From Deltaproteobacteria bacterium (GTDB taxonomy: Bacteria > Myxococcota_A > Polyangia > Polyangiales > Polyangiaceae): a stretch of DNA of 62,033 nucleotides. The stretch is from NCBI GenBank assembly GCA_016209145.1, contig JACQWT010000051.1:1-62033 (forward strand). Direction: 5' to 3'. Numbering within the stretch: position 1 is the stretch's first letter; every line of letters starts with the position of its first letter. Under the pieces are notes generated by a model. That model saw nothing but the letters and a program-made list of their open reading frames with translations. It was not told the origin of the DNA and made no database searches. Made by a program: the position numbers and the translations under genes. Below are positions 1,876 to 62,033 of the stretch, one piece after another.

Positions 1876-2103
1876 TCAAGCCGCGAAACGGAGGATCTCG
1901 ACCTCGGCGCCGGCGCGGACCGCCGCGTCGGCCACCGAGTACACGCGCTGCGCCACCGGCTCCGTGAGGTAGAACTCGCCGCAGTTGTCGCAGATCTCGG
2001 CGGGAACGGCTTTCATGATGATGGTGGTCTGCCCGCGCTGGAGCGTGACGGTCGTCTCTCCCGGCGCCATCTCGCCGTTCTTGCAGAGCAGGCACGTTGT
2101 CAT
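1876..2103 (-). CDS. MqsA/YgiT-type zinc-finger antitoxin
   Basis: MTTCLLCKNGEMAPGETTVTLQRGQTTIIMKAVPAEICDNCGEFY has the CxxC...CxxC YgiT-type zinc finger. The ATG at 2103 overlaps the stop of the upstream DUF4258 gene (ATGA). Confidence 0.7.
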   Translation of the reverse strand: MTTCLLCKNGEMAPGETTVTLQRGQTTIIMKAVPAEICDNCGEFYLTEPVAQRVYSVADAAVRAGAEVEILRFAA

Positions 2104-2393
2104 CGCTTTCTCCTCTTGAAGCCGGGCTCCCACTTCGCCGGGTCGGGCTCGTACACGGTGATCACGTAGCACCGCCCGGTCGCATCGTCACGGGCGGCCA
2201 CGACGTGGAGCGCCCTCCCGCCGACCGTGCCGAGCAGAAGGCGGCTGGGGTGCGGCTGGTCATCCGGGTACTCGGCGATGATCTCCCCGGCGGCGACCAC
2301 CTCGCGCACCTGCCGGGGAGAGATGGCGCGCGCGAACATCCGCGCAAGGGCGTGGCCCGTGAGGATGATCTCGGTGCACTCCACCAGGTCCAC
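2100..2393 (-). CDS. DUF4258-family toxin
   Basis: C-terminal 97 aa of ORF 2100..3713, starting at GTG 2393. Reads VDLVECTEIILTGHALARMFARAISPRQVREVV...GRCYVITVYEPD, matching the DUF4258 pattern. The rest of that long ORF is antisense to the Hsp70-like gene. Confidence 0.65.
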   Translation of the reverse strand: MDLVECTEIILTGHALARMFARAISPRQVREVVAAGEIIAEYPDDQPHPSRLLLGTVGGRALHVVAARDDATGRCYVITVYEPDPAKWEPGFKRRKR

Positions 2394-12508: not shown

Positions 12509-12525
12509 CCTCATTGGAAGTCGCG

Positions 12526-12792
12526 ATGGCCAAGGGCACCCAGATTTCGGCGCTGATCTCGGAGACGACGCGCCAGCTCATGGACAAGCACGTCCGCCAC
12601 AACGGCGTCAAGAAGGGCCATCTGATCGAGCAGGCGCTCCTGCACCACCTTCAGGCGCTCGACGAGCTGCCGGCGGAGCTCATCATCCACCCGCGCATCG
12701 TCGTGTCGCGCAAGACTGGTGAAGAGATGCTCCGTCAGGCCGAGGCCGGACCGACGCCTGCCCTGCGCGAGCTGATGCGCGATGGAGATTAG
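12526..12792 (+). CDS. Ribbon-helix-helix-type antitoxin of a GNAT toxin module (TacA-like role)
   Basis: MAKGTQISALISETTRQLMDKHVRHNGVKKGHLIEQALLHHL. Overlaps the downstream GNAT gene by 11 nt. Confidence 0.55.
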   Translation: MAKGTQISALISETTRQLMDKHVRHNGVKKGHLIEQALLHHLQALDELPAELIIHPRIVVSRKTGEEMLRQAEAGPTPALRELMRDGD

Positions 12793-13306
12793 GGCTCTGC
12801 GCCGGAGCGACGACCGCTCGGCCTTCCAATCAGGGGACGAGGCCCTCGACCGATTCCTGCACCGCTACGCAGGCCAGAACCAGTTTCGTCACTACCTCGG
12901 CGTGACGTATGTGGCGGTCGACGCAGGGCGCATCCTCGGATTCGCCACGGTGGCGCCCCGGCATCTGGCCATCGAGGATCTGCCCGAGCGGACGCGCAGG
13001 AAGCTGCCCCGCTACCCCGTGCCGGTCCTCGGGCTCGCCAGGCTCGCGGTTGACAGGTCCGCCCAGTCGATGGGCCTCGGCACGCAGCTCCTCCGGTTCG
13101 TGCTCGAGCTCGCCGCGAAGATGGCTGACGATGTCGGCTGCGCCGGCGTGGTCGTCGACGCGAAGCCGGGCGCGGTCGGCTTCTACGCCAAGTTCGGCTT
13201 CGCGCCCTTCGAACCGATCGAGGGCCAGTCCGACGCGCGGCCGCGCCCGACGGCGATGTGGCTGCCCATCCAGGCGATCAAGGCGGCAAGCGGGCGGACG
13301 CGCTGA
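12782..13306 (+). CDS. GNAT-family N-acetyltransferase toxin (TacT/KacT-like)
   Basis: MEIRALRRSDDRSAFQSGDEALDRFLHRYAGQNQ...LGLARLAVDRSAQSMGLGTQLL...FYAKFGF. This is the typical architecture and size of GNAT toxins paired with a small upstream antitoxin. Confidence 0.7.
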   Translation: MEIRALRRSDDRSAFQSGDEALDRFLHRYAGQNQFRHYLGVTYVAVDAGRILGFATVAPRHLAIEDLPERTRRKLPRYPVPVLGLARLAVDRSAQSMGLGTQLLRFVLELAAKMADDVGCAGVVVDAKPGAVGFYAKFGFAPFEPIEGQSDARPRPTAMWLPIQAIKAASGRTR

Positions 13307-21635: not shown

Positions 21636-22283
21636 TCACCCCTCGCCGTCGCCCTCACCGAGCGCGTCGAGCTGCGCCCAAATCGCGTCGAGATCGATGG
21701 TCAGCTCCGGGCAGCCGGGCACGCCTTCGATCTTGCCGCCCGCCGCGCCCAGGGCGTGCACGTAGCGACCGTCGGGACCGAGCTCCCAGATCTCGAGCGT
21801 GCGCAGCTCGGGATCCATGATCCAGTACCAGGGCACGCCGAAGGCGGCGTAGTCCTCGACCTTCTCCAGGCGGTCGCGGCGCACGTCCCTGGGCCGGGGC
21901 GTGAGCACCTCCACGACGATGCTCGGAGGCAGGCGTAGCAGCGAAACGCTCAACCCTGGCCGCCGTGCGCCGGGGAGGTATGCGAACAGATCCGGCTTGC
22001 GTCCCCGTCGCGGTCGGACGGCGAGCTTGCCCTCGGAGCCGGCGGCACAACCGCCACGCGGAAGCAGCCAGGCGTTGAGCACCGCGCCCAGCAGCACCAC
22101 CACGAGCTCGTGCGCGAACGTCGGCATCTCCTCCTGCACGAGCTCGCCCTCCACGAGCTCGCCCGGCTCGTCCTCGTCGAGCTGGGCCCACTCCTCGAGC
22201 GTCAGGCGCGACGCGGCTCCCGCCTGCTCGATCTGGCCGATGCTCACAAGTTCGAGGATAGCGTGCGGGCAAGGCGGCATCAA
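21636..22283 (-). CDS. Uma2-family endonuclease
   Basis: LTLEEWAQLDEDEPGELVEGELVQEEMPTFAHE...PDLFAY...PSIVVEVLTP...DRLEKVEDYAAFGVPWYWIMDP is the canonical Uma2/PD-(D/E)xK layout. Confidence 0.75.
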   Translation of the reverse strand: MMPPCPHAILELVSIGQIEQAGAASRLTLEEWAQLDEDEPGELVEGELVQEEMPTFAHELVVVLLGAVLNAWLLPRGGCAAGSEGKLAVRPRRGRKPDLFAYLPGARRPGLSVSLLRLPPSIVVEVLTPRPRDVRRDRLEKVEDYAAFGVPWYWIMDPELRTLEIWELGPDGRYVHALGAAGGKIEGVPGCPELTIDLDAIWAQLDALGEGDGEG

Positions 22284-33149: not shown

Positions 33150-33239
33150 CGCCCCCTCTTGACCTGCATCCGAGGAGAAAGTCTAGCAGCCTTGGCAAGA
33201 CAGCGACATCCCTTTCGCCGCCGACGACCCGATCCTGCG

Positions 33240-33749
33240 CTACCTCCCCGTCCCCCCCCGACCCTTCCACCCCAGCACCCGCAGCGCATTCTCCGAGAAG
33301 ATCTTGCGCACGTCCGCCTGACTCAAGCCGGCGGCGCCCAGGGCACGGGCGAGGTCGGGCAAGCGCGAGGCGTCCTCCAGGCCGCCGGCCGGAGTCGCGC
33401 CGTCGAAGTCCGACCCGATGGCCACGTGGTCGATACCCGCGACGCCGACCATGTGCAGGGCGTGCCGGACGAGATCGTCAATGGTGGCGCGGCGGCTGGC
33501 GATGAACTTCGCGTGGAAGTTGAGCCCGGCGATGCCCCCCGTGCGCGCGATCGCGCGGAGCTGGTCGTCGGTCAGGTTGCGCTGGTTGCGGCACTTGGCC
33601 CGGGCGTTGGAGTGGCTCGCCACGATGGGCGCCCCCGCGGCCTCGGCGATGGGCACGAGATCGGCGAATGCCGCATCGGACATGTGGGAGGCATCCACGA
33701 GCACGCCCTGCTCGTAGATCCGCCGGCACAGCGCCTTGCCGGCCGCGGG

Positions 33750-34812: not shown

Positions 34813-35334
34813 TCACGGGGCAAACATCTCCTGAAGAACCGTGGCAACCCGCGCGAATGTCGGCCCTGACAGTCGGCCAAGATGTCGGAGAAGACGTTCC
34901 CGATCGACGGTGCGAAGCTGGTCCGTGACGACGTGTCCGTTCCGATTCAGGAACCGGCAAGGCACGCGGAACGGGTACGGTCGGCCTCCTGTCGTTAGAG
35001 GAGCGACGATGACAGTGCGGAGATGCGCGTTGAGCTGATCCGGCGAGACCACGACACAAGGCCGCATCTTCTCGATCTCGCTCCCGCGGGTCGGATCCAG
35101 GTCGACGAGGAACACGTCCCCGCGCTGTACGCGTTCACGCCTTCTCCCAGTCGGCTCGTCAGGCGGCCGCGAGCGCGAGCGCGCCCGGAGGCCCGGGCCG
35201 CAGCGTACTCCTGTACGTGAGGACCCGGGCGGAGGACGTAAGCCGCGATCGCGGCCGACTCGGCGAGCCGTCGTTGCTGGCGCGGAAATGCCGTGAACGG
35301 CTACCCCGCGCCTGGCAGACTTCGCAGCTACCAC
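34813..35334 (-). pseudogene. mazF: MazF/PemK-family toxin gene split by a 180-bp MITE-like insertion
   Basis: Core RGDVFLVDLDPTRGSEIEKMRPCVVVSPD...VAPLTT...VVTDQLRTVD. The first nine codons (GTG 35334 ... AGG CGC) are separated from the core by the element at 35126-35305. Confidence 0.7.
35126..35305. mobile_element. MITE-like element, copy A (180 bp, terminal inverted repeats, 6-bp TSD CCGCGC)
   Basis: The ends contain CGTTCACG / CGTGAACG inverted repeats. CCGCGC is at 35120-35125 and 35306-35311. The interior is ~90% identical to the reverse complement of 53047-53225. Confidence 0.65.
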
Positions 35335-35576
35335 CGCCATTCGGCCTCGTCGAAATGAGTGGGCGTCGGAGCGTCAAGGAGCCGGTCGGCGTCCTCGGCG
35401 TGGGCCATCCGGGCGGCCTCGGCCCAGCCGCTTCGCGGCGTCTTCTGCGCAAGGATTACGATGGTGTTGCCCCGCAGCTCCAGCTCGACATCATCGGGCA
35501 AGCCCGCCAGCATGATGAGGGGCTTCGGGAGCCGGACGCCGCGGGAGTTGCCCATCCGGACGAGCCTGGTCCTCAT
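35328..35576 (-). CDS. mazE: AbrB/MazE/SpoVT-family antitoxin
   Basis: MRTRLVRMGNSRGVRLPKPLIMLAGLPDDVELELRGNTIVIL is a SpoVT/AbrB swapped-hairpin motif. Lies immediately upstream of mazF. Confidence 0.7.
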   Translation of the reverse strand: MRTRLVRMGNSRGVRLPKPLIMLAGLPDDVELELRGNTIVILAQKTPRSGWAEAARMAHAEDADRLLDAPTPTHFDEAEWRW

Positions 35577-35636
35577 ACGGAGATACAATGTACCTACGTC
35601 GGGCCGTGACGTCAAGCCCGAGGTGCACGCGCACGG

Positions 35637-36853
35637 CTACCTCCCCGTCCCCCCCCGACCCTTCCACCCCAGCACCCGCAGCGCATTGTCCGAAAAGATC
35701 TTGCGCACGTCCGCCTGGCTCAAGCCGGCGGCGCCCAGGGCGCGGGCGAGGTCGGGCAGGCGCGAGGCGTCCTCCAGGCCGCGGGCCGGAGTGGCGCCGT
35801 CGAAGTCCGACCCGATGGCCAGGTGGTCGATGCCGGCGACGCCGACCATGTGCAGGGCGTGCCGGACGAGATCGTCAATGGTGGCACGGCGGCTCGCGAT
35901 GAACTTGCCGTGGAAGTTGAGCCCGGCGATGCCCCCCGTGCGCGCGATCGCGCGGAGCTGGTCGTCGGTCAGGTTGCGCTTGTTGCGGCACTTCGCCCGC
36001 GCGTTGGAGTGGCTCGCCACGATAGGCGCCCCCGCGGCCTCGGCGATGGGCACGAGATCGGCGAATGCCGCATCGGACATATGGGAGGCGTCCACGAGCG
36101 CGCCCTGCTCGTAGATCCGCCGGCACAGCGCCTTGCCGGCCGCGGTGAGCCCGTGCCGGGCGGACCCGGTCGCCGAGGAGGAGAAGGCGTTGTCGTGGGC
36201 GTGCACGGGGCCCACGAGACGCACGCCGCGCGCGATGAAACCGTCGATCTTGGCGGGATCGGACGCGAAGGCGCGGGCTCCCTCGATGCCGAGGTACACG
36301 GCCACGGCGCCAGGGGGCGCCGGGCCTTGGCTCGCGAGGCGCAGCGAGGGGTTGGCAGCCAGGATCTTCTCGATCGTGCCCAGGACCGCCTCCGTGTCTG
36401 CCGGCCGCGGCTTGCCGCCACGCGCGTCGTCCGGGACGTAGATCGCGAACAGCACCGCGGCGTAGTGGCCGGCGCGCAGCGCCTCCGCGGTGATGTGCCC
36501 CTCCGGCAGGCTCGGGAGGCGCCCCTTGGAATGCACCTGCCAGGCCGTGTCCACGTGCAGATCGACGACCGGCACGGGCGCGTCCGGCCCAGGCTCAGGC
36601 ACCGGCACCGGCAGAGCCGGCTCGCCGGTGCCGGCCGTTGGGCCGCCGCGCGGGCCGGCCGCGGCAATCGAAGTACCGGCGGCGCTCGCCGTCACGGCGG
36701 CAGGGGCCGACCCCGAGGCCGCGCTCGGCGGCTCGGCCCTCTCCGGCCGCGCACAGCCCTGCAGGCAGAGCACGGTGCCCGGCAGCGCCAAGGCGCCGAG
36801 CACCGCGCGCCCGAGGCGGCGGTGCGATCTTCCGGCCGCGGCAGGTGCACGCA

Positions 36854-38137: not shown

Positions 38138-39973
38138 ATGAGCAGGACAACGGCACGCGGCGGGTTTCTGCTTCTCTCGGCAGCGGGCGCCTGGGGCATG
38201 CTCGCCTGCTCGGGCAGCGAGCCAATCGCCGCCACGGGGACTACGACCGGCGGGACAGGGGGCGCGGGCGGGTGCCCCGCGGGGCTGACCGAGTGCTCCG
38301 GCAAGTGCGTGCCCACCGCGCTCGACCCGGCGCACTGCGGCGGCTGTGATCGGGCCTGCGCCCCCGGCGAGGTGTGCGCGGCGGGCCAGTGCGCCATCGA
38401 CTGCGGCGGCGGCACCACCAAGTGCGGCGGCAAGTGCGTGGACACCACCCTCGACAAGGCCCACTGCGGCGGCTGCGACAATGCCTGCGCGGTGGGCGAG
38501 CTGTGCTCCGCCGGAGGGTGCGCGCTCCAGTGCCTGGGCGGCACCACCGACTGCGGCAAGGCGTGCGTGGACACGAAGCTCGATCCGGCCAACTGTGGCG
38601 CCTGCGGCCACGGCTGCGCCCCGGGTGAGGTGTGCTCGGCCGGCCAGTGCGCCCTCGACTGCGGCGGCGGCACCACGAAATGCAGCGGCGCCTGCGTCGA
38701 TCCGGATCTCAACCCCGAGCACTGCGGCGGCTGCAACAACGCCTGCGGCGCGGGCGAGCTGTGCTCGGCCGGCCAGTGTGCGCTCCAGTGCCTGGGCGGC
38801 ACGACCAAGTGCGGCAACAAGTGCATCGACACGACCAACGACCCGGCCAACTGCGGCGGCTGCGGCGTGGCCTGCGCCAAGGGCCAGATCTGCGCGGCCG
38901 AGAAGTGCCAGTCGGAGTGCGGGCCGGGCACGACCAAGTGCGGCAACAAGTGCACCGACACCGCGCTCGATCCCGCCAACTGCGGAAGCTGCGGCGCTGC
39001 CTGCCCGGGCGGCCAGGTGTGCTCCTCCGGCCAGTGCGCGCTCCAGTGCTACGGCGGCACCGTCAAGTGCGGCAGCAAGTGCGTCGACCCGACCCTGGAT
39101 CCGGCCAACTGCGGAAGCTGCGGCAATGCCTGCCCGGGCGGCCAGTACTGCGTGGCCGGCGCCTGTCAGCTCGTCTGCCCCGGACCGCTGACCAAGTGCG
39201 GGAACAAGTGCGTCGACACGCAGACCGATCCGGCTCACTGCGGCGGCTGCGACAAGCCCTGCGGCAACAACGAGACGTGCAGCGCCGGCAAGTGCATCGG
39301 CGGGCTGTACAAGACCTGCAAGGAGATCCTCGATGCCGGCAAGTCGGTGGGCGACGGGATCTACTACATCGATCCCACCGGCGGCGACCCGGGGGACAAG
39401 TTCCAGGTGTACTGCGACATGACGCTGAGCGGCGGCGGCTGGACGCTGGTCTACTTCGTCGACGCCGCCCACTTCGACGGCACGCACGCCAACGACAAGA
39501 ATCTCAACCCCAATGCGCCTACGACGATCAACGCCCAGAAGGACTTCTGGAACGCCGAGTTGAAGCTCGGCATCGCCGAGACGCTGTTCGCCTGCACCAC
39601 GCAGAACGGAGGCGGGCCATACTGGTGGTACTACAACAAGAAGGACCCGCACACGTTCTTCGCCAACACCAGCCAGAGCTACGACTACCAGCCCTCGATG
39701 GCCAGCACCGCCCACAACGGAACGTCGGCCGGCGGCTGCATGAGCACGCACAAGGCCAATCCCTACGGCTTCGTCGTGATCGAGAAGAGCGGCTGCGGCT
39801 CGTGCGGCCAGATGCTCTACGGGATGTACCACTACGACGGCGGCGGCGGCTGCAACAGCACGAGCAACACCTACGGCAACCACGCCAGCCCCTGGGACAA
39901 CCGCAGCATCGCCTACCCGATCTGCAACGGCCAGCAGACGAGCAACGGCAAGCTCTGGGTGGGGGTGCGCTAG
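38138..39973 (+). CDS. Secreted lipoprotein with nine Cys-rich 43-aa repeats and a C-terminal fibrinogen-C-like (FReD-like) module
   Basis: ATG 38138 within ORF 36638..39973. Lipobox GMLACS. Repeats of the form CGGGTTKCGGKCVDTTLDKAHCGGCDNACAVGELCSAGGC, then CKEILDAGKSVGDGIYYIDPTGGDPGDKFQVYCDMTLSGGGWTLV. Confidence 0.65.
   Translation: MSRTTARGGFLLLSAAGAWGMLACSGSEPIAATGTTTGGTGGAGGCPAGLTECSGKCVPTALDPAHCGGCDRACAPGEVCAAGQCAIDCGGGTTKCGGKCVDTTLDKAHCGGCDNACAVGELCSAGGCALQCLGGTTDCGKACVDTKLDPANCGACGHGCAPGEVCSAGQCALDCGGGTTKCSGACVDPDLNPEHCGGCNNACGAGELCSAGQCALQCLGGTTKCGNKCIDTTNDPANCGGCGVACAKGQICAAEKCQSECGPGTTKCGNKCTDTALDPANCGSCGAACPGGQVCSSGQCALQCYGGTVKCGSKCVDPTLDPANCGSCGNACPGGQYCVAGACQLVCPGPLTKCGNKCVDTQTDPAHCGGCDKPCGNNETCSAGKCIGGLYKTCKEILDAGKSVGDGIYYIDPTGGDPGDKFQVYCDMTLSGGGWTLVYFVDAAHFDGTHANDKNLNPNAPTTINAQKDFWNAELKLGIAETLFACTTQNGGGPYWWYYNKKDPHTFFANTSQSYDYQPSMASTAHNGTSAGGCMSTHKANPYGFVVIEKSGCGSCGQMLYGMYHYDGGGGCNSTSNTYGNHASPWDNRSIAYPICNGQQTSNGKLWVGVR
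38273..39297 (+). repeat. Tandem array of ~129-bp coding repeats (about nine units, with a 258-bp super-period)
   Basis: gactgcggcggcggcaccac recurs at ~38398 and ~38656. Each unit carries the CxxxxxxC...C..C...C......C......C spacing. Confidence 0.8.
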
Positions 39974-51057: not shown

Positions 51058-51641
51058 GCCCGCCGCGCTGGATCCTCGACGACGGTGCGCTCGGCGTGCT
51101 GGCCGAGACCATCGCCCCCGCCGCGCCCGCGTCGTGGCCGCCCGGTGAGCTGTTCGTCGCCGAGCAGACCCAGGCCGACGTCGCGCACGACAAGTCAGGG
51201 CGCCGCGTGGCGCTGCTGGCCGTCCGGACCGACCGCAAGCCCGTGATCGACGTCCTCCGCGTGCCGCTCGGTTCGCCAGCGGCGCGTATCCTCTACGATC
51301 ACCTCGGCCGCGGATCCGACGACACTGAGGGCCGGGCAGAGCGTCAGGCAATCGCCTGGGCGATCGACATCGGCACGGACGCCATCTTCGTGACGCACGA
51401 CAAGCGCGCCGCGCTGACCGCGCTCGCCGAGCTCGGGCGCTGCCGCGTGGCGCACACGTTCGATCTCTGGATGCACCTGCACGCGTCCGGCCGCGTGACC
51501 GACGACGAGTACGGCAGGTTGTGCGAGCGGACCGCGAAACGAGACGATGGGTTGCCGGGGGTGCCGTGGCGGATCAAGAGCGCGGCGAAGTGGGTGCATG
51601 CAGGCAAGGACATAGTGATGGCGGGCTGGGCTGACGGATGA
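51048..51641 (+). CDS. PIN-like (DUF3368/DUF4411-like) putative nuclease partner of the ImmA protein
   Basis: GTG 51048 overlaps the ImmA gene end. [11 protein letters not shown]... and [36 protein letters not shown] resemble the GE.e.ia.A......i.DD..AR..A PIN-like pattern. Confidence 0.45.
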
Positions 51642-53020
51642 CGGCACGAGTGAGCATGGCGAGCCAGACGCCCGCCGTCACGGTGGTGGGCGGCGGCCTG
51701 GCCGGCTGCGAGGCGGCTCTGCACCTCGCGCACCGAGGCATCCCGGTGCGCCTCTACGAGATGCGGCCAGCGCGGCGCTCCCCCGCGCACGCGAGCGACG
51801 AGCTCGGGGAGCTCGTCTGCTCCAGCTCGCTCGGCGCCACGGCGCTCACGGGCGCCAGCGGGCTGCTCAAGGAGGAGCTCGCACGCGCCGGCTCGGCGCT
51901 GATGCGCTGCGCCGATCAGACGCGGGTGCCGGCCGGCGGGGCGCTGGCGGTCGATCGGCGGCGCTTCGCCGTGGCGATGACGGGCCTCGTGGCCGCGCAC
52001 GAGCGCATCGAGATCGTGCGCCGCGAGGTCGCGCGCATCCCTGACGAGCGGCCGGCGATCGTCGCCACCGGGCCGCTCACCTCGGATGCCCTGTGCGAGA
52101 GCCTGGCCCAGGCGGTGGGCGCGGAGCACCTGTTCTACTACGACGCCATCGCCCCCATCGTCAGCGCCGAATCGATCGACTGGTCTGTGTGCTGGAAGCA
52201 GTCGCGCTACGACAAGGGCGGCGCCGACTACGTGAACTGCCCCCTCGACGAGACCCAGTACCGCGCCTTCGTCGCGGCCTTGCTCGCGGCCGAGAAGGTA
52301 GCGCCACGACCGTTCGAGGAGCCCGTCTACTTCGAGGGTTGCCTGCCGTGCGAGGTGATGGCCGAGCGCGGGGTGGAAACGCTGGCCCACGGCCCGCTCA
52401 AGCCCGTCGGGCTGACCGATCCGCGCGCGGGCCGGCGGCCCTATGCCGTGCTCCAGCTCCGCGCCGAGGACGAGGCGGCGAGCGCCTTCAACCTCGTCGG
52501 CATGCAGACGCGCATGAAGCACGGCGAGCAGAAGCGCGTCTTCCGGATGGTGCCGGGCCTCGGGGGCGCCGAGTTCCTGCGTCTGGGAAGCGTGCACCGC
52601 AACACCTTCCTCAACGCGCCCGAGTTGCTCGACGAGACGATGCAGCTTCGCGCGCTGCCGGGCGTGTACGTTGCCGGCCAGCTCACCGGTGTCGAGGGCT
52701 ACGTCGAGAGCGCCGCCGGCGGGCTGCTGTGCGCCGTCACGCTGGCGCAGCGGCTTCGGGGCGAGCCCGTGCGCCCGCCGCCCGCCACCACCGCGCTGGG
52801 AGGCCTCCTCGGGTACCTGCGGCGCCGGCAACCGGCGTACCAGCCCTCCAACATCACCTGGGCGCACCTGCCGCCGTTGGAAGAAGGCGACCGGCGCCTG
52901 CGCAAGCGCGCGCGCTACCAGAAGGTGGCCGAGCGGGCGCTGATGGAGCTCGACTCCTGGCTGCACGAGGCGGGGCTGGGAGGCAGGAGCGCGGCCGAGC
53001 CGCGCCGGGGCTACGAGTAG
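51638..53020 (+). CDS. trmFO: Methylenetetrahydrofolate--tRNA-(uracil-5-)-methyltransferase TrmFO
   Basis: [39 protein letters not shown] and [21 protein letters not shown] 51638 overlaps the previous stop; the alternative ATG 51656 fits family N-termini better. Confidence 0.9.
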
Positions 53021-53036
53021 GCCTTGCTACGGTGCC

Positions 53037-53456
53037 TCACGGCGTTGGTATGCGTTCACGCATTGCGGCGCTAGCAACGACGGCTCGCCGAGTCGGCCGC
53101 GATCGCGGCTTACGTCCTCGGCCCGGGTCCTCACGTTCGGGAGTACGCTGCGGCCCGGGCCTCCGGGCGCGCTCGCGCTCGCGGCCGCCTGACGATCCGG
53201 GTGTTGGAATGCGTGAACGGCTACCGGCGTTGACGTCCACGACCGCTCGGTCGTCGTCCACGGCGTACACGACCCGGTAGTCCCCGACGCGGATGCGCCG
53301 CAGGTCGTTGCGACCGACGAGCTTACGGCGCCCCGGCGGTCGCGGGGCCGCAGCGAGCGCCTCGATCCTCCGGAGAACGCGATCGGCCTGCCGCGCATCG
53401 AGGCCCTCCAACTCGCGCCGCGCGGACCGCGCGAGGACCACGCGGTACCTAGCCAC
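53037..53456 (-). pseudogene. RelE/ParE-family toxin gene with its 3' end replaced by read-through into the MITE
   Basis: GTG 53456. VARYRVVLARSARRELEGLDARQADRVLRRIEALA...LVGRNDLRRIRVGDYRVVYAVDD is RelE/ParE-like. After ...VVDVNA the frame enters the element at 53225. Confidence 0.65.
53047..53225. mobile_element. MITE-like element, copy B (179 bp, TIRs GGTATGCGTTCACGCATT / AATGCGTGAACGGCTACC, 6-bp TSD GGCGTT)
   Basis: GGCGTT at 53041-53046 and 53226-53231. The interior matches the reverse complement of copy A. Confidence 0.7.
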
Positions 53457-53646
53457 GGAGCTTGCCCAGCTTGCGGAGCCGGCGGCCGACGGACTCAATG
53501 GTCTCCCGGGGCTCACTCTCGCGCTGCCTCGCCACGATGGCGTCGTAGATGTCCTCCCAGAGCCCGGCGTGCCTCCTCAGGTCGAGCAGGACGGCGAGTC
53601 GCTGGCCTCTGTCGTCCGTCACGAACTGCAAGCCCGGAACGCCCAT
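53449..53646 (-). CDS. Small antitoxin candidate upstream of the RelE/ParE gene
   Basis: 65-aa ORF overlapping the toxin start by 8 nt, which is typical type II TA organisation. Family not recognised. Confidence 0.45.
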   Translation of the reverse strand: MGVPGLQFVTDDRGQRLAVLLDLRRHAGLWEDIYDAIVARQRESEPRETIESVGRRLRKLGKLRG

Positions 53647-54310: not shown

Positions 54311-54569
54311 GTCTTCTGCCTTCGCAAAGTCCGGGCCAGGGAGCGGCGGGCGCCCTGCGAGTCGGGCTGTCGCTAGGAGATCCACGTGGTTGCGTATCCA
54401 GGTCGCCGCCGCACGCAGCGGCCGTTTGCAGGTTGGACGGCCAGGCCCGCGCTTTCGGCCTACCGCACCCACGACAGTGCTGTCGCGGTGGGCTCGATCC
54501 ATGGGTTGCGCCGGCTACGCGGACGTTCAACCATGACGCACCGTGGACGGGAATACCGCCAGCCGTCGC

Positions 54570-54686
54570 GTAGCCGTTCACGGCATTTCCGTGCCGGCAA
54601 CGACGGCTCGCCGAGTCGGCCGCGATCGCGGCTTTCGTCCTCGGCCCGGCTCCTCACGCACAGGAGTACGCTCCGGGCCGGGCCTG
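54570..54686. mobile_element. MITE-like element, copy C (truncated or degenerate, one terminus only)
   Basis: GTAGCCGTTCACGGCATTTCCGTGCCGGCAACGACGGCTCGCCGAGTCGGCCGCGATCGCGGCT... matches copies A and B for ~115 bp, then diverges. No second TIR is present. Confidence 0.5.
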
Positions 54687-54702
54687 TGGAGCGCTGCTCC
54701 GC

Positions 54703-55506
54703 TTGCCAGTCCCTCGCGCTCGCATCGCCTCGGACGGGTCCCAGACCAACCCCGGCCCGAACGGCGGCGCGCCCGTTGGCAACAAGGTCTCGACGGCGCA
54801 CAATCCCAACAGCGCGGTCGACATCAAGAGCTGCAACGACCCGAGCTGCATCAAGGACTGGTTCGAGGCCGAGTACCGTCCCTTCAAGAAGGCCAACGAG
54901 CTCCCCGTCGCGCCCAACTGCGGCTCCGGCAACGCGGGGGGACCGCAGACCGCCAGGGACTCGGTCATGCTCAAGCTGCGCCTGCGGGCGCCGAGCAACG
55001 CGCTCAGCTTTTCCTTCAGCAGCTTCTTCCTGTCCGCGGAGTACCCCGAGTACGTCTGCTCGAGCTACAACGACCAGTTCATCGCCCTCGTGACCACACC
55101 GGGAGGCGCGCCCCAGCCGATCCCGAACCCGGTGGACAAGAACCTGATGGTCTACAACGACGGCCAGCAGAAGTGGCCCATCGGCATAAACATCGCCTAC
55201 GGCACGAATCTTTTCGCGGTGTGCGAGCCTCAGAACATCAACCCGGGCTGCTGGGACCAGAGCGTCAGCGTGAAATCCTGCAAGCTGGGAGACGCCATGC
55301 TCGCCGGCACGGGCTACGACAAGAAGAGCAACTGCGACATCGGCGGCGGGACGTACTGGCTCACGACGCACGGCAACGTCATTCCAGGCGACATCGTCGA
55401 GCTCCGCATCGCCATCTGGGACGTGGGCGACGCCCAGTTCGACTCGCTCGCGCTGATCGACGGCTTCAAGTGGCAGGCCAACGCCACCATCCCGGGCACG
55501 GAGTAG
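54703..55506 (+). pseudogene. Choice-of-anchor-L-like secreted-protein gene lacking its 5' end and signal peptide
   Basis: DSVMLKLRLRAPSNALSFSFSSFFLSAEYPEYVCSSYNDQFIALV is a typical choice-of-anchor L core. The ORF opens directly at the truncated MITE copy, with no signal peptide and only a TTG start. Confidence 0.45.
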
Positions 55507-55519
55507 CAGGCCCGCCGAC

Positions 55520-56350
55520 CTAGCCCCGGCGCAGCCGATCGATCTCCGCCTGCAGCTCCGCGACGCGCCGCAGGGCCTCGTCGCGCTCCTGCTCGGCGCG
55601 CTCCCGCTCTTGCTCGGCGCGCTCCCGCTCTTGCTCGGCGCGCTCCCGCTCCTGCTCGGCGCGCTCACGGCGACCGACCAGATCGCCGACCATGGCCTCG
55701 AGCCTGGCCACGAGCTCGTCGGCCTCTGGCAGCGGCGCCGTGCCGAAGTAGAAGCGCAGACGCTCGTCGACAAGCGCCAGATCGAGGCCGAGCACCGCCG
55801 AGCTGTACAACCCCTGCTGCGGCATGATGGCCTCGTAGCTGCGGGCCTCGACGCGCGGCAGCCGCCAGCCGTAGAGCCGGCCGCGGGTTCGGTCGAACAA
55901 GAAGTACTCGGGGATCCCGAGCCGCGCGTAGCGCCGGCGGTTGCCCTCGAAGTCCTTGGCGAACTCACCGCTGACGTGGATCTCCAGCACCAGATCGAGC
56001 CCCTTGCCCTCGTGGCTCACGACCCACGTGCTGCGCTCGTGCGGCTCCACGTCGAGCACGGCCAGCACGTCCGGGGCGAAGCGCGGCTCGCCCGGGTAGT
56101 AGACGCTGAGCTCCGAGGACAGGTACACCTTGCGCCCGATGCGGCGGTAGAAAGCGTCGAGCGCGCCGAGCGCGCGCGACTTGGCGAGGCGGTGGGCGTC
56201 GCCCTCGGGCATGAACAGCTCGAGCGGCACCTCGCACGGCAGCGCCGCCACGACCCGGCGGCGTTCTTCGGACGACATGCGCTCCCACTGCTCGGCCGTG
56301 GGCGCCCGAGGATCGCTGGCGTCGAGGTGAAAGACGACGGGTTGGGTCAT
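55520..56350 (-). CDS. Uma2-family endonuclease with a C-terminal heptad-repeat extension
   Basis: ATG 56350. FMPEGDAHRLAKS...FAPDVLAVLDV...LDLVLEIHVS...YARLGIPEYFLFD, then a C-terminal (ERAEQER)x4 and VAELQAEIDRLRRG. Confidence 0.7.
   Translation of the reverse strand: MTQPVVFHLDASDPRAPTAEQWERMSSEERRRVVAALPCEVPLELFMPEGDAHRLAKSRALGALDAFYRRIGRKVYLSSELSVYYPGEPRFAPDVLAVLDVEPHERSTWVVSHEGKGLDLVLEIHVSGEFAKDFEGNRRRYARLGIPEYFLFDRTRGRLYGWRLPRVEARSYEAIMPQQGLYSSAVLGLDLALVDERLRFYFGTAPLPEADELVARLEAMVGDLVGRRERAEQERERAEQERERAEQERERAEQERDEALRRVAELQAEIDRLRRG
55583..55672 (-). repeat. Four tandem 21-bp in-frame repeats (ERAEQER heptads)
   Basis: gcgctcccgctcttgctcggc is repeated head-to-tail. Confidence 0.85.
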
Positions 56351-56425
56351 CACCACCAGGATAGCGCGGACCGGGCCCGGTGTGCTACGCACGGGCCGTC
56401 GCCCGCCCTCTCACGCAGTCTCCTC

Positions 56426-61670: not shown

Positions 61671-62033
61671 ATGCTGGCGAACCGGCGCAGCCTGGTGGGT
61701 GCCCTGGCCGCCGCGCTCCTGCTTGCGGGGGGCGCGGAGTGCGGGGGCAGTGCCACCATCGACAGCGGCGGCGGGGCCGGCGCCGGCAATGGAGACGGAG
61801 GCGCGGCCGGCCACGGCGGCCACGGCGGCCACGGCGGCCACGGCGGCCACGGCGGCCACGGCGGCGCGGGCGGCGACGCCGGCTGCGGCCCGTGCGCGGC
61901 GGGATGGCAGTGCTGCAGCGGGCAGTGCGTGGACGCGGCGAGCGATCCGGCCAACTGCGGCGGCTGCGGCCAGGCCTGCGCGCCGGGCCGGCCCTGCACG
62001 CTCGGGCAGTGCGGGCCGGGGTGCATCGGCTGC
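61671..62033 (+). CDS. Partial (5' end) secreted Cys-rich repeat protein, paralogous to the repeat region of the 38138 gene
   Basis: It is missing from the ORF track, presumably because it runs off the window. MLANRRSLVGALAAALLLAGGAEC (lipobox), (GHG)6, then CCSGQCVDAASDPANCGGCGQACAPGRPCTLGQC. Confidence 0.55.
   Translation, partial: MLANRRSLVGALAAALLLAGGAECGGSATIDSGGGAGAGNGDGGAAGHGGHGGHGGHGGHGGHGGAGGDAGCGPCAAGWQCCSGQCVDAASDPANCGGCGQACAPGRPCTLGQCGPGCIGC
61809..61862 (+). repeat. Six tandem 9-bp repeats (GGCCACGGC, encoding Gly-His-Gly)
   Basis: Read directly from the sequence. Confidence 0.9.

What the first reader, a model, noticed from the sequence alone, without database searches (positions are those of the whole stretch)
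53011..53456. A second copy of the same element truncates a RelE/ParE toxin gene, again with a 6-bp target duplication
Copy B (53047-53225, 179 bp) has TIRs GGTATGCGTTCACGCATT / AATGCGTGAACGGCTACC and is flanked by GGCGTT on both sides (53041-53046 and 53226-53231).

The RelE/ParE ORF currently reads ...YAVDDDRAVVDVNA and then runs into the element, giving a nonsense 60-aa tail. Excising the element plus one GGCGTT gives ...[14 protein letters not shown] with a stop at 53011. This recreates the conserved V.HR...Y C-terminus of RelE/ParE toxins, where catalytic residues lie. The upstream antitoxin ORF (53449-53646) is untouched.

This is the second independent insertion of one element into a type II TA toxin gene in 62 kb. 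Either the element targets such genes, or selection retains insertions that disarm toxins.
Basis: seen in the sequence. Interest (0 to 1): 0.75.

Follow-up and report, generated by a model that had tools for sequence, protein, structure and literature searches.

The report
Small transposon truncates a RelE toxin gene
A 179-bp non-coding mobile element has jumped into the last 27 bases of a RelE-type toxin gene and cut off its catalytic tail, which is an ordinary transposon event; there is no good evidence that the element seeks out toxin genes.

Summary
Copy B (53047-53225) has 16/18 terminal inverted repeats and an exact GGCGTT duplication on both sides. Removing it plus one GGCGTT restores an 86-aa RelE/ParE toxin. 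That is the length of most of its closest homologues, and the restored VRHRSKAYS tail matches their invariant motif.

The disrupted gene keeps residues 1-77 and gains a 62-aa nonsense tail. The antitoxin is intact and conserved.

The element is a MITE found so far only in this metagenome-assembled genome (MAG). There are three copies in the window, and at least 14 more show up as element-derived peptides fused to annotated proteins.

The "TA-targeting" idea is weak:
- Of the 14 other copies, 13 sit at the ends of ordinary genes.
- One lies after an intact VapC PIN domain.
- Copy A in mazF is in frame and leaves the MazF domain whole.
- A third window copy (54569-54723) is not in a TA gene.
- Copy B is the only one of 10 copies checked with a Pfam-recognisable host that truncates a domain.

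This fits insertion at gene ends followed by tolerance of toxin loss. It is a new member of a known kind, of low to moderate interest.

The parts
53047..53225 (+). MITE copy B, 179 bp, non-coding
   Evidence: The sequence was read directly. It is 90% identical to copy A and 84% to copy C. nhmmer E=1.5e-58. As single-stranded DNA it folds into a long hairpin, -55.8 kcal/mol, z=-2.8.
53047..53064 (+). Left terminal inverted repeat, GGTATGCGTTCACGCATT
53208..53225 (-). Right terminal inverted repeat (reverse complement GGTAGCCGTTCACGCATT), 16/18 match to the left one
53041..53046 (.). Target-site duplication, left copy, GGCGTT
53226..53231 (.). Target-site duplication, right copy, GGCGTT. These are codons N76-A77 of relE on the minus strand.
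53226..53456 (-). relE/parE toxin gene, codons 1-77, GTG start. It continues into the element as the called 139-aa protein P0011 (53037-53456).
53011..53040 (-). Orphaned 3' end of relE: VRHRSKAYS plus the stop codon. It is still intact and overlaps the 3' end of trmFO by 10 nt.
53449..53646 (-). Cognate antitoxin gene, 65 aa, intact, overlapping the toxin start by 8 nt
   Evidence: No Pfam or NCBIfam hit. It is 56% identical (E=2e-25) to the gene directly upstream of an intact 69%-identical RelE homologue in L017.
51638..53020 (+). Convergent 460-aa neighbour ORF, called trmFO from reading its translation (not scanned against Pfam). Its stop lies 21 nt from the insertion point.
35126..35305 (-). 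MITE copy A, 180 bp, flanked by CCGCGC at 35120-35125 and 35306-35311. It is inserted in frame after codon 12 of mazF (ORF 34813-35340, protein P0135).
54569..54723 (+). MITE copy C: the left terminus plus about 155 nt of a sub-variant with an 18-nt internal insertion. The right terminus is missing. It is not in a TA gene.
   Evidence: A 39-aa stretch is identical to the element peptide in P0006.

Best explanation
Copy B is a miniature inverted-repeat transposable element (MITE). It is a 179-bp non-autonomous DNA transposon that must be moved in trans by a transposase, not yet identified, that recognises its roughly 18-bp terminal repeats and makes a 6-bp staggered cut.

It inserted between codons 77 and 78 of a relE/parE-family toxin gene, 27 nt before the stop. 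This spot lies in the tail-to-tail junction with trmFO. The insertion detached the last nine codons (VRHRSKAYS), which carry the invariant Arg-His-Arg...Tyr motif. These align with the C-terminal Arg/Tyr of solved RelE toxins. The toxin now ends in a 62-aa nonsense tail and is most likely catalytically dead (inferred). The antitoxin gene is unaffected.

The presence of another copy in mazF is best explained by two things: the family's general habit of settling at gene ends and intergenic junctions, and the fact that toxin genes are among the few coding sequences in which such hits are tolerated. Recognition of TA genes is not needed to explain it.
For: Shown:
- Terminal repeats, an exact 6-bp duplication and precise in-silico restoration of the ORF.
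- The restored protein is 86 aa, as are most of the 120 listed homologues at 56-72% identity. Its tail matches their consensus VRHRSKAY, with R79 and R81 invariant and V78, H80, Y85 at 90% or more.
- The full ParE_toxin profile is recovered only after excision.
- End-to-end alignment to solved RelE toxins 9g12, 1wmi and 3g5o, including the terminal R...Y.
- The antitoxin is conserved with the partner of an intact homologue.
- The family is multi-copy. There are three copies in the window. Fourteen further fused proteins all come from the same NCBI MAG, locus tags HY744_.
- Copy A has a different 6-bp duplication, and its excision restores a full PemK profile.
- In the 6 other copies whose host has a Pfam domain next to the element, that domain reaches its profile end before the element starts: OmpA 2-97/98, HMG-CoA reductase 3-368/368, DUF2804 to 339/339, RNase_H_2 1-161/165, PIN 3-115/120, Response_reg 1-108/111. 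Copy B is the only domain-truncating copy.

Inferred:
- Loss of toxicity. This rests on established knowledge that the C-terminal Arg81/Tyr87 of E. coli RelE and Arg85 of P. horikoshii aRelE are needed for activity.
- Mobilisation in trans.
Against: - No autonomous partner element with matching termini was found. None is in the window, and the rest of the MAG's DNA could not be read.
- Toxin inactivation is untested.
- Three of 17 known copies touch a type II toxin gene. That is more than a uniform model predicts (P about 6e-4 at a 1% target share), so some real bias cannot be excluded.
- The peptide census sees only copies that gene callers fused to an ORF. It missed known positives in individual searches (P0011, P0131 and P0132 were absent), so it is incomplete.
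Confidence: 0.8

Rival explanations
1. Active targeting: the transposase, or a host factor it uses, directs the element into type II toxin genes or TA operons.
For: Two of three window copies lie in toxin genes. A further copy in the MAG sits just after vapC. Three of 17 exceeds uniform expectation.
Against: - The three toxins are unrelated folds: RelE, MazF and PIN.
- The insertion points differ: codon 77 of 86, codon 12 of 113 (the restored ORF), and after the PIN domain.
- The duplicated hexamers differ: GGCGTT, CCGCGC and an inferred TGCGAA at a non-TA site.
- Thirteen of 14 copies outside the window are at ordinary genes such as OmpA, TolC, LolA, HMG-CoA reductase, DcrB and cytochrome c.
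- The independent set, 1 of 14, is not significant.
Confidence: 0.07
2. Selection for toxin loss: insertions that disarm toxins are positively retained because losing the toxin is advantageous.
For: Copy B, the only domain-truncating copy among the 17, is in a toxin gene, and the antitoxin is spared. An antitoxin hit would be lethal, so only toxin hits can survive.
Against: - Only one of the three TA-associated copies demonstrably removes conserved residues. MazF and the VapC PIN domain stay intact.
- The remaining 77 relE codons and the orphaned 9 codons show no further decay. That fits a recent neutral event equally well.
- Positive selection cannot be told apart from mere tolerance with one genome.
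Confidence: 0.25
3. Pure coincidence of a gene-end or intergenic insertion habit. The relE 3' end overlaps the trmFO 3' end, so the hit is simply an insertion into a convergent gene junction that happens to clip relE.
For: The insertion point is 21 nt past the trmFO stop. Ten of the 17 copies are fused to the 3' ends of ORFs, and five lie at the 5' ends of genes or upstream of them.
Against: It does not by itself explain copy A near the 5' end of mazF. With a toxin share of about 1-2% of the window, two of three has P of about 3e-4 to 1e-3, although this was noticed post hoc.
Confidence: 0.4
4. Metagenome assembly artefact: the contig is mis-joined at a repeat and relE is not truly interrupted.
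For: The window is a MAG contig, and repeats are classic mis-join points.
Against: Both flanks belong to the same gene. They carry an exact 6-bp duplication and rejoin into a perfect full-length ORF. A chimera would not do this.
Confidence: 0.02

Closest known systems
Bacterial MITEs (for example Correia/CREE of Neisseria, RUP of Streptococcus pneumoniae, Nezha of cyanobacteria); from my own knowledge
   Same: Size of about 100-300 bp, terminal inverted repeats, target-site duplication, no transposase, many diverged copies, hairpin-forming, mostly at gene boundaries, and occasionally inside genes.
   Different: The 6-bp duplication and the GGTAGCCGTTCACGGCATT termini match none of the families I can name: Correia and RUP duplicate TA, Tn3-derived TIMEs duplicate 5 bp, IS1- or IS4-derived elements 8-12 bp. 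No sequence match was found in plasmids, IMG/VR or JGI metagenomes, and element peptides occur only in this MAG among 1.84 billion representative proteins.
Rickettsia palindromic elements (RPE), which insert in frame into coding genes; from my own knowledge
   Same: Copy A plus its duplication is 186 nt, or 62 codons. It is read through without a stop inside mazF. Two to three of the six frames of the element are open.
   Different: Copy B shifts the frame and truncates its host. The open frames are expected from 72% G+C. The element has classical terminal repeats and duplications. There is no evidence that the inserted peptide is tolerated functionally.
IS-inactivated hok/sok loci of E. coli K-12 (Pedersen and Gerdes 1999; recalled, could not be checked because the paper tools failed)
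   Same: Chromosomal toxin-antitoxin loci silenced by mobile-element insertions at or just beyond the toxin's 3' end.
   Different: Those are type I loci hit by full insertion sequences. This is a type II RelE toxin hit by a MITE.
RelE/StbE mRNA-interferase toxins (PDB 9g12, 1wmi, 3g5o)
   Same: The restored protein aligns end to end, including the C-terminal R-x-R...Y, and has an overlapping upstream antitoxin gene.
   Different: The present gene lacks that C-terminus. The antitoxin belongs to no Pfam or NCBIfam family.

Membership tests
MITE (non-autonomous TIR transposon) | Small size with no transposase gene | tested here: met
   The element is 179-180 bp. Its translations carry no protein domain, only Arg/Ala/Pro-rich read-through.
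MITE (non-autonomous TIR transposon) | Terminal inverted repeats | tested here: met
   16/18 in copy B and 13/18 in copy A. The shared core is GTAnnCGTTCACG.
MITE (non-autonomous TIR transposon) | Target-site duplication of fixed length with variable sequence | tested here: met
   GGCGTT for copy B and CCGCGC for copy A, both exact. A third 6-bp duplication is inferred from the peptides flanking the element in P0131.
MITE (non-autonomous TIR transposon) | Multiple dispersed copies in the genome | tested here: met
   Three copies in the window. Fourteen element-fused proteins lie on other contigs of the same MAG.
MITE (non-autonomous TIR transposon) | A cognate autonomous element with the same termini | not testable with these tools
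   No transposase was found among the 25 window ORFs scanned; most long ORFs were not scanned. The MAG's other contigs could not be fetched. Two solitary terminus-like 23-26-mers were found in unrelated metagenome contigs.
RelE/ParE toxin superfamily | Pfam PF05016 above the gathering score over the full profile | tested here: met
   Restored protein: 53.1 bits against a cutoff of 23, profile 1-89/89. Disrupted protein: profile 1-80/89.
RelE/ParE toxin superfamily | Conserved C-terminal Arg/Tyr catalytic motif | tested here: met
   Present only in the restored sequence. R79 and R81 are invariant and H80 and Y85 at 90% or more among 22 aligned sequences. It aligns to solved RelEs. It is absent from the protein as now encoded.
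RelE/ParE toxin superfamily | Small overlapping upstream antitoxin gene | tested here: met
   A 65-aa ORF with an 8-nt overlap, 56% identical to the upstream partner of an intact homologue.
RelE/StbE subfamily (TIGR02385) | Score above the curated cutoff | tested here: not met
   22.1 bits against a cutoff of 27.9. The gene is filed under the superfamily. The RelE-like assignment rests on the PDB hits and homologue names.
RelE/ParE toxin superfamily | Ribosome-dependent mRNA cleavage or toxicity | not testable with these tools
   Needs an expression assay.
Tn3-derived TIME, or IS630-derived (Correia/RUP) MITEs | 5-bp duplication with GGGG termini, or a TA duplication | tested here: not met
   The duplications are 6 bp and G+C-rich, and the termini start GGTA.
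REP/BIME-type palindromes | 20-40-nt units with no target duplication | tested here: not met
   A 179-bp unit with an exact 6-bp duplication.

The most novel reading that the evidence does not exclude
The element family has a genuine bias for type II toxin genes or TA operon ends. This could be through a structural feature of these loci, or because toxin genes act as safe-harbour sinks. MITE-driven erosion of TA modules would then be a systematic process in this lineage. In addition, the consensus length of 180 + 6 nt (62 codons, with open frames) might let copies persist inside coding sequences, as in mazF.
Probability: 0.12. Interest if true: 0.55.

Novelty: new member of a known kind. Interest (0 to 1): 0.3.

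Why it matters
This is a clean, datable example of how a chromosomal toxin-antitoxin module decays. A small mobile element clips the catalytic tail of the toxin and the antitoxin survives.

It also defines a previously unseen MITE family, with 6-bp duplications and GGTAGCCGTTCACGGCATT termini, in an uncultured 72% G+C deltaproteobacterial (myxobacteria-like) genome.

For annotation it is useful too. At least 16 proteins of this MAG carry spurious element-derived Arg-rich segments at the N- or C-terminus, or (in MazF) internally. The wider claim of toxin targeting would be interesting, but the available census does not bear it out.

Tried and rejected
1. **Genome-contig scan with a 22-mer from the element core.** All 14 returned loci were chance matches of 22-29 nt in Actinoplanes, Burkholderiales and others.

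2. **Metagenome-contig scans.** The 28-mer core gave nothing. The 22-mer terminus gave two solitary terminus-like sites in contigs of about 50% G+C. Neither has a partner repeat or the element body.

3. **Viral contigs (two patterns) and plasmids (blastn).** Nothing found.

4. **The look-up of encoding contigs for the antitoxin, P0004 and P0002.** None is on record, so no DNA of the MAG's other contigs could be read.

5. **The search of protein representatives with a concatenated six-frame query.** It was rerun with one frame only. One hit, P0133, is an unrelated GRLGEPSLP repeat protein and was discarded.

6. **Rfam scan of the region.** No family; only a chance IRES hit at E=0.63.

7. **Promoter and terminator scan.** Nothing relevant to the element.

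8. **PADLOC on host proteins.** Only weak matches to coiled-coil regions.

9. **Paper search and reading.** Failed on all seven attempts. Literature comparisons therefore rest on memory and are marked as such.

10. **Alternatives considered and rejected.** REP/BIME, TIME, Correia-type elements, RPE membership and assembly chimera (see the membership tests and rival explanations).

Full report
**Observation**

The region was read directly and checked by script.
- Copy B occupies 53047-53225 (179 bp).
- Its left end is GGTATGCGTTCACGCATT. The reverse complement of its right end is GGTAGCCGTTCACGCATT, a 16/18 match.
- GGCGTT flanks it at 53041-53046 and 53226-53231. A 6-bp flank match has a chance of about 7e-4 at this composition.
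- The terminal 18-mer with up to 3 mismatches occurs three times in the window, against 0.01 expected.

On the minus strand, the toxin ORF starts at GTG 53456. It reads 77 residues (...YAVDDDRAVVDVNA), enters the element and ends after a 62-residue Arg-rich tail. This is the called protein P0011, 139 aa. Removing 53047-53231 gives ...[14 protein letters not shown], with the stop at 53011-53013.

**Is the restored gene a real RelE/ParE toxin?**

Yes, on five counts:
- Pfam ParE_toxin scores 53.1 bits over the whole profile (1-89 of 89) for the restored protein. The disrupted one scores 42.9 bits over positions 1-80.
- A database search returned 284 homologues. Most of the 120 listed are exactly 86 aa and are 56-72% identical over 95-100% of the query.
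- In an alignment of 22 sequences, the restored tail VRHRSKAYS lies on the consensus VRHRSKAY. R79 and R81 are invariant, and V78, H80 and Y85 are conserved in at least 90%. The closest homologue ends [14 protein letters not shown].
- The protein aligns end to end with solved RelE toxins: 9g12, P. horikoshii aRelE 1wmi and M. tuberculosis Rv2866 3g5o. The terminal R...Y is included. From established knowledge, E. coli RelE needs Arg81 and Tyr87 and aRelE needs Arg85. The lost nine residues are therefore catalytic, and this step is inference.
- The 65-aa upstream ORF (53449-53646) overlaps the toxin start by 8 nt. It has no Pfam or NCBIfam hit. It is 56% identical (E=2e-25) to the gene directly upstream of an intact 69%-identical homologue in four metagenome contigs. 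This is a conserved TA pair.

The TIGR02385 RelE_StbE model scores below its cutoff (22.1 against 27.9). I therefore file the gene in the superfamily and call it RelE-like.

**What the element is**

The window holds three copies.
- **Copy A** is at 35126-35305, in the opposite orientation, with CCGCGC on both sides.
- **Copy B** is the one described above.
- **Copy C** is at 54569-54723.

A and B are 90% identical; C is 84-89% identical to them. The element has no coding capacity of its own. It folds into a long hairpin (z=-2.8) and matches no Rfam family.

The case for a MITE rests on small size, terminal inverted repeats, fixed-length duplications of different sequence, multiple diverged copies and exact restoration of two host ORFs. 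The 6-bp duplication and the GGTAGCC... termini exclude the following (duplication lengths recalled from my own knowledge):
- Tn3-derived TIMEs, which duplicate 5 bp and have GGGG termini.
- IS630-type elements, which duplicate TA.
- REP-type palindromes, which make no duplication.

The partner transposase was not found. None of the 25 window ORFs scanned against Pfam is a transposase; most long ORFs were not scanned.

**Where else it occurs**

DNA searches were unproductive:
- The metagenome scans returned nothing for the core. For the terminus they returned two solitary 23-26-nt matches in unrelated contigs of about 50% G+C.
- IMG/VR and plasmids gave nothing.

I therefore searched protein databases with translations of the element, because 72% G+C leaves several frames open. 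This found 14 proteins with element-derived segments. All come from one NCBI MAG, "Deltaproteobacteria bacterium", locus tags HY744_.

The window's own products P0011 and P0135 sit on a 62,033-bp contig held in NCBI, so the window is a whole contig, very probably from that same MAG. An exhaustive HMMER scan of 1.84 billion representative proteins with one frame found no copy outside this MAG. The family appears private to this lineage.

**Census and the toxin-targeting idea**

Positions of the 14 other copies:

| Position relative to the gene | Hosts |
|---|---|
| N-terminus or upstream of the gene (five copies) | cytochrome c lipoprotein, TolC, LolA, a hypothetical protein, DcrB |
| C-terminus (nine copies) | RNase H-like, VapC, OmpA, HMG-CoA reductase, a membrane protein, two hypotheticals, a response regulator, DUF2804 |

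Wherever a Pfam domain lies next to the element, it is complete before the element begins:
- OmpA 2-97/98
- HMG-CoA reductase 3-368/368
- DUF2804 to 339/339
- RNase_H_2 1-161/165
- Response_reg 1-108/111
- PIN 3-115/120, followed by about 22 more residues

The VapC copy therefore does not disrupt the toxin domain.

Copy A plus its duplication is 186 nt. It is translated in frame as a 62-residue insert after residue 12 of MazF. The domain from RGDVFLVDL onward stays whole, so it is not shown to be disarming.

Copy C lies in a divergent intergenic region. Copy B is the only copy of 17 that truncates a recognised domain.

Statistics:
- With toxins at 1-2% of the window, two of three copies in toxins has P of about 3e-4 to 1e-3. 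This was noticed post hoc.
- The independent set, 1 of 14, has P of about 0.07-0.25.
- The pooled 3 of 17 has P of about 6e-4 at a 1% share and 0.05 at a 5% share.

The census sees only ORF-fused copies, and individual searches missed known positives, so it is incomplete.

The three toxins are unrelated folds hit at different positions, and the duplicated hexamers differ. This argues against recognition of TA genes.

The most economical reading has two parts. First, the element lands at gene ends or intergenic junctions; copy B sits 21 nt beyond the trmFO stop, in a tail-to-tail overlap. Second, selection purges most genic hits but tolerates loss of a toxin, whereas loss of the antitoxin would be lethal.

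**Age**

The duplication is perfect. The first 77 codons keep all invariant residues. The orphaned nine codons are still intact and 8/9 identical to the nearest homologue. The insertion therefore looks recent. The 10% divergence between copies reflects family diversity, not time since this event.

**Comparison and novelty**

In kind this is a known phenomenon: a bacterial MITE that interrupts a gene. Mobile elements silencing TA toxins also have precedent, for example the IS-inactivated hok loci of E. coli K-12. That example is recalled from memory, because the paper tools failed.

The family itself seems undescribed and lineage-restricted. I rate it a new member of a known kind, with interest about 0.3.

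The most novel reading still open is a genuine bias for TA loci, possibly helped by the 62-codon open-frame design. I give it about 12%.

Noticed in passing
window 34813-35340 (-), copy A at 35126-35305: Copy A plus its 6-bp duplication is 186 nt, or 62 codons. It is read through in frame, so mazF encodes a 175-aa protein (P0135) with a 62-residue insert after residue 12 and an intact MazF domain. The gene is not obviously inactivated.
   Followed up: yes
window 54569-54723 and ORF 54703-55506 (+): The third copy lacks its right terminus. It belongs to a sub-variant with an 18-nt internal insertion and shares 39 identical residues with the element peptide in TolC protein P0006. It abuts a choice-of-anchor-L ORF with no signal peptide or N-terminal region (NCBIfam profile 77-215 of 219). 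This may reflect an element-associated deletion.
   Followed up: partly
window 33239-33748 and 35636-36145: A 510-bp direct repeat, 96% identical, made of the 3' part of an M19 dipeptidase gene. It brackets a 1.9-kb block holding a Ser/Thr-kinase fragment, mazF with its MITE, and mazE. The region has been rearranged or duplicated.
   Followed up: partly
L015 294-319 (-) and L016 192-214 (+): Two JGI metagenome contigs of about 50% G+C each carry one 23-26-nt match to the MITE terminus (GGTAsCCGTTCACGGCATTTCCGC). Neither has a partner repeat or the element body. They may be ends of a related transposon or chance matches.
   Followed up: partly
window 12514-12792 (+), 12782-13306 (+) and 1876-2172 (-): Further possible TA components that no element interrupts. 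A 92-aa ORF overlaps a GNAT acetyltransferase gene in a TacAT-like arrangement. There is also a YgiT/MqsA-type zinc-finger ORF (46 bits).
   Followed up: partly
P0001-P0010, P0131, P0132, P0134, P0136 (other contigs of the same MAG): At least 14 annotated proteins of the MAG carry spurious Arg/Ala/Pro-rich extensions translated from this element. These are annotation artefacts worth flagging. The peptides flanking the element in P0131 imply another 6-bp duplication (TGCGAA).
   Followed up: partly
window 38293-39316 and 61913-62033: An array of eight 129-bp Cys/Gly-rich coding repeats lies inside a large ORF. A related unit sits at the contig end.
   Followed up: no
window 21636-22283 (-) and 55520-56392 (-): Two Uma2-family putative endonuclease genes. 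The second has a 21-nt tandem repeat (ERAEQER) near its 3' end, at 55581-55664.
   Followed up: no
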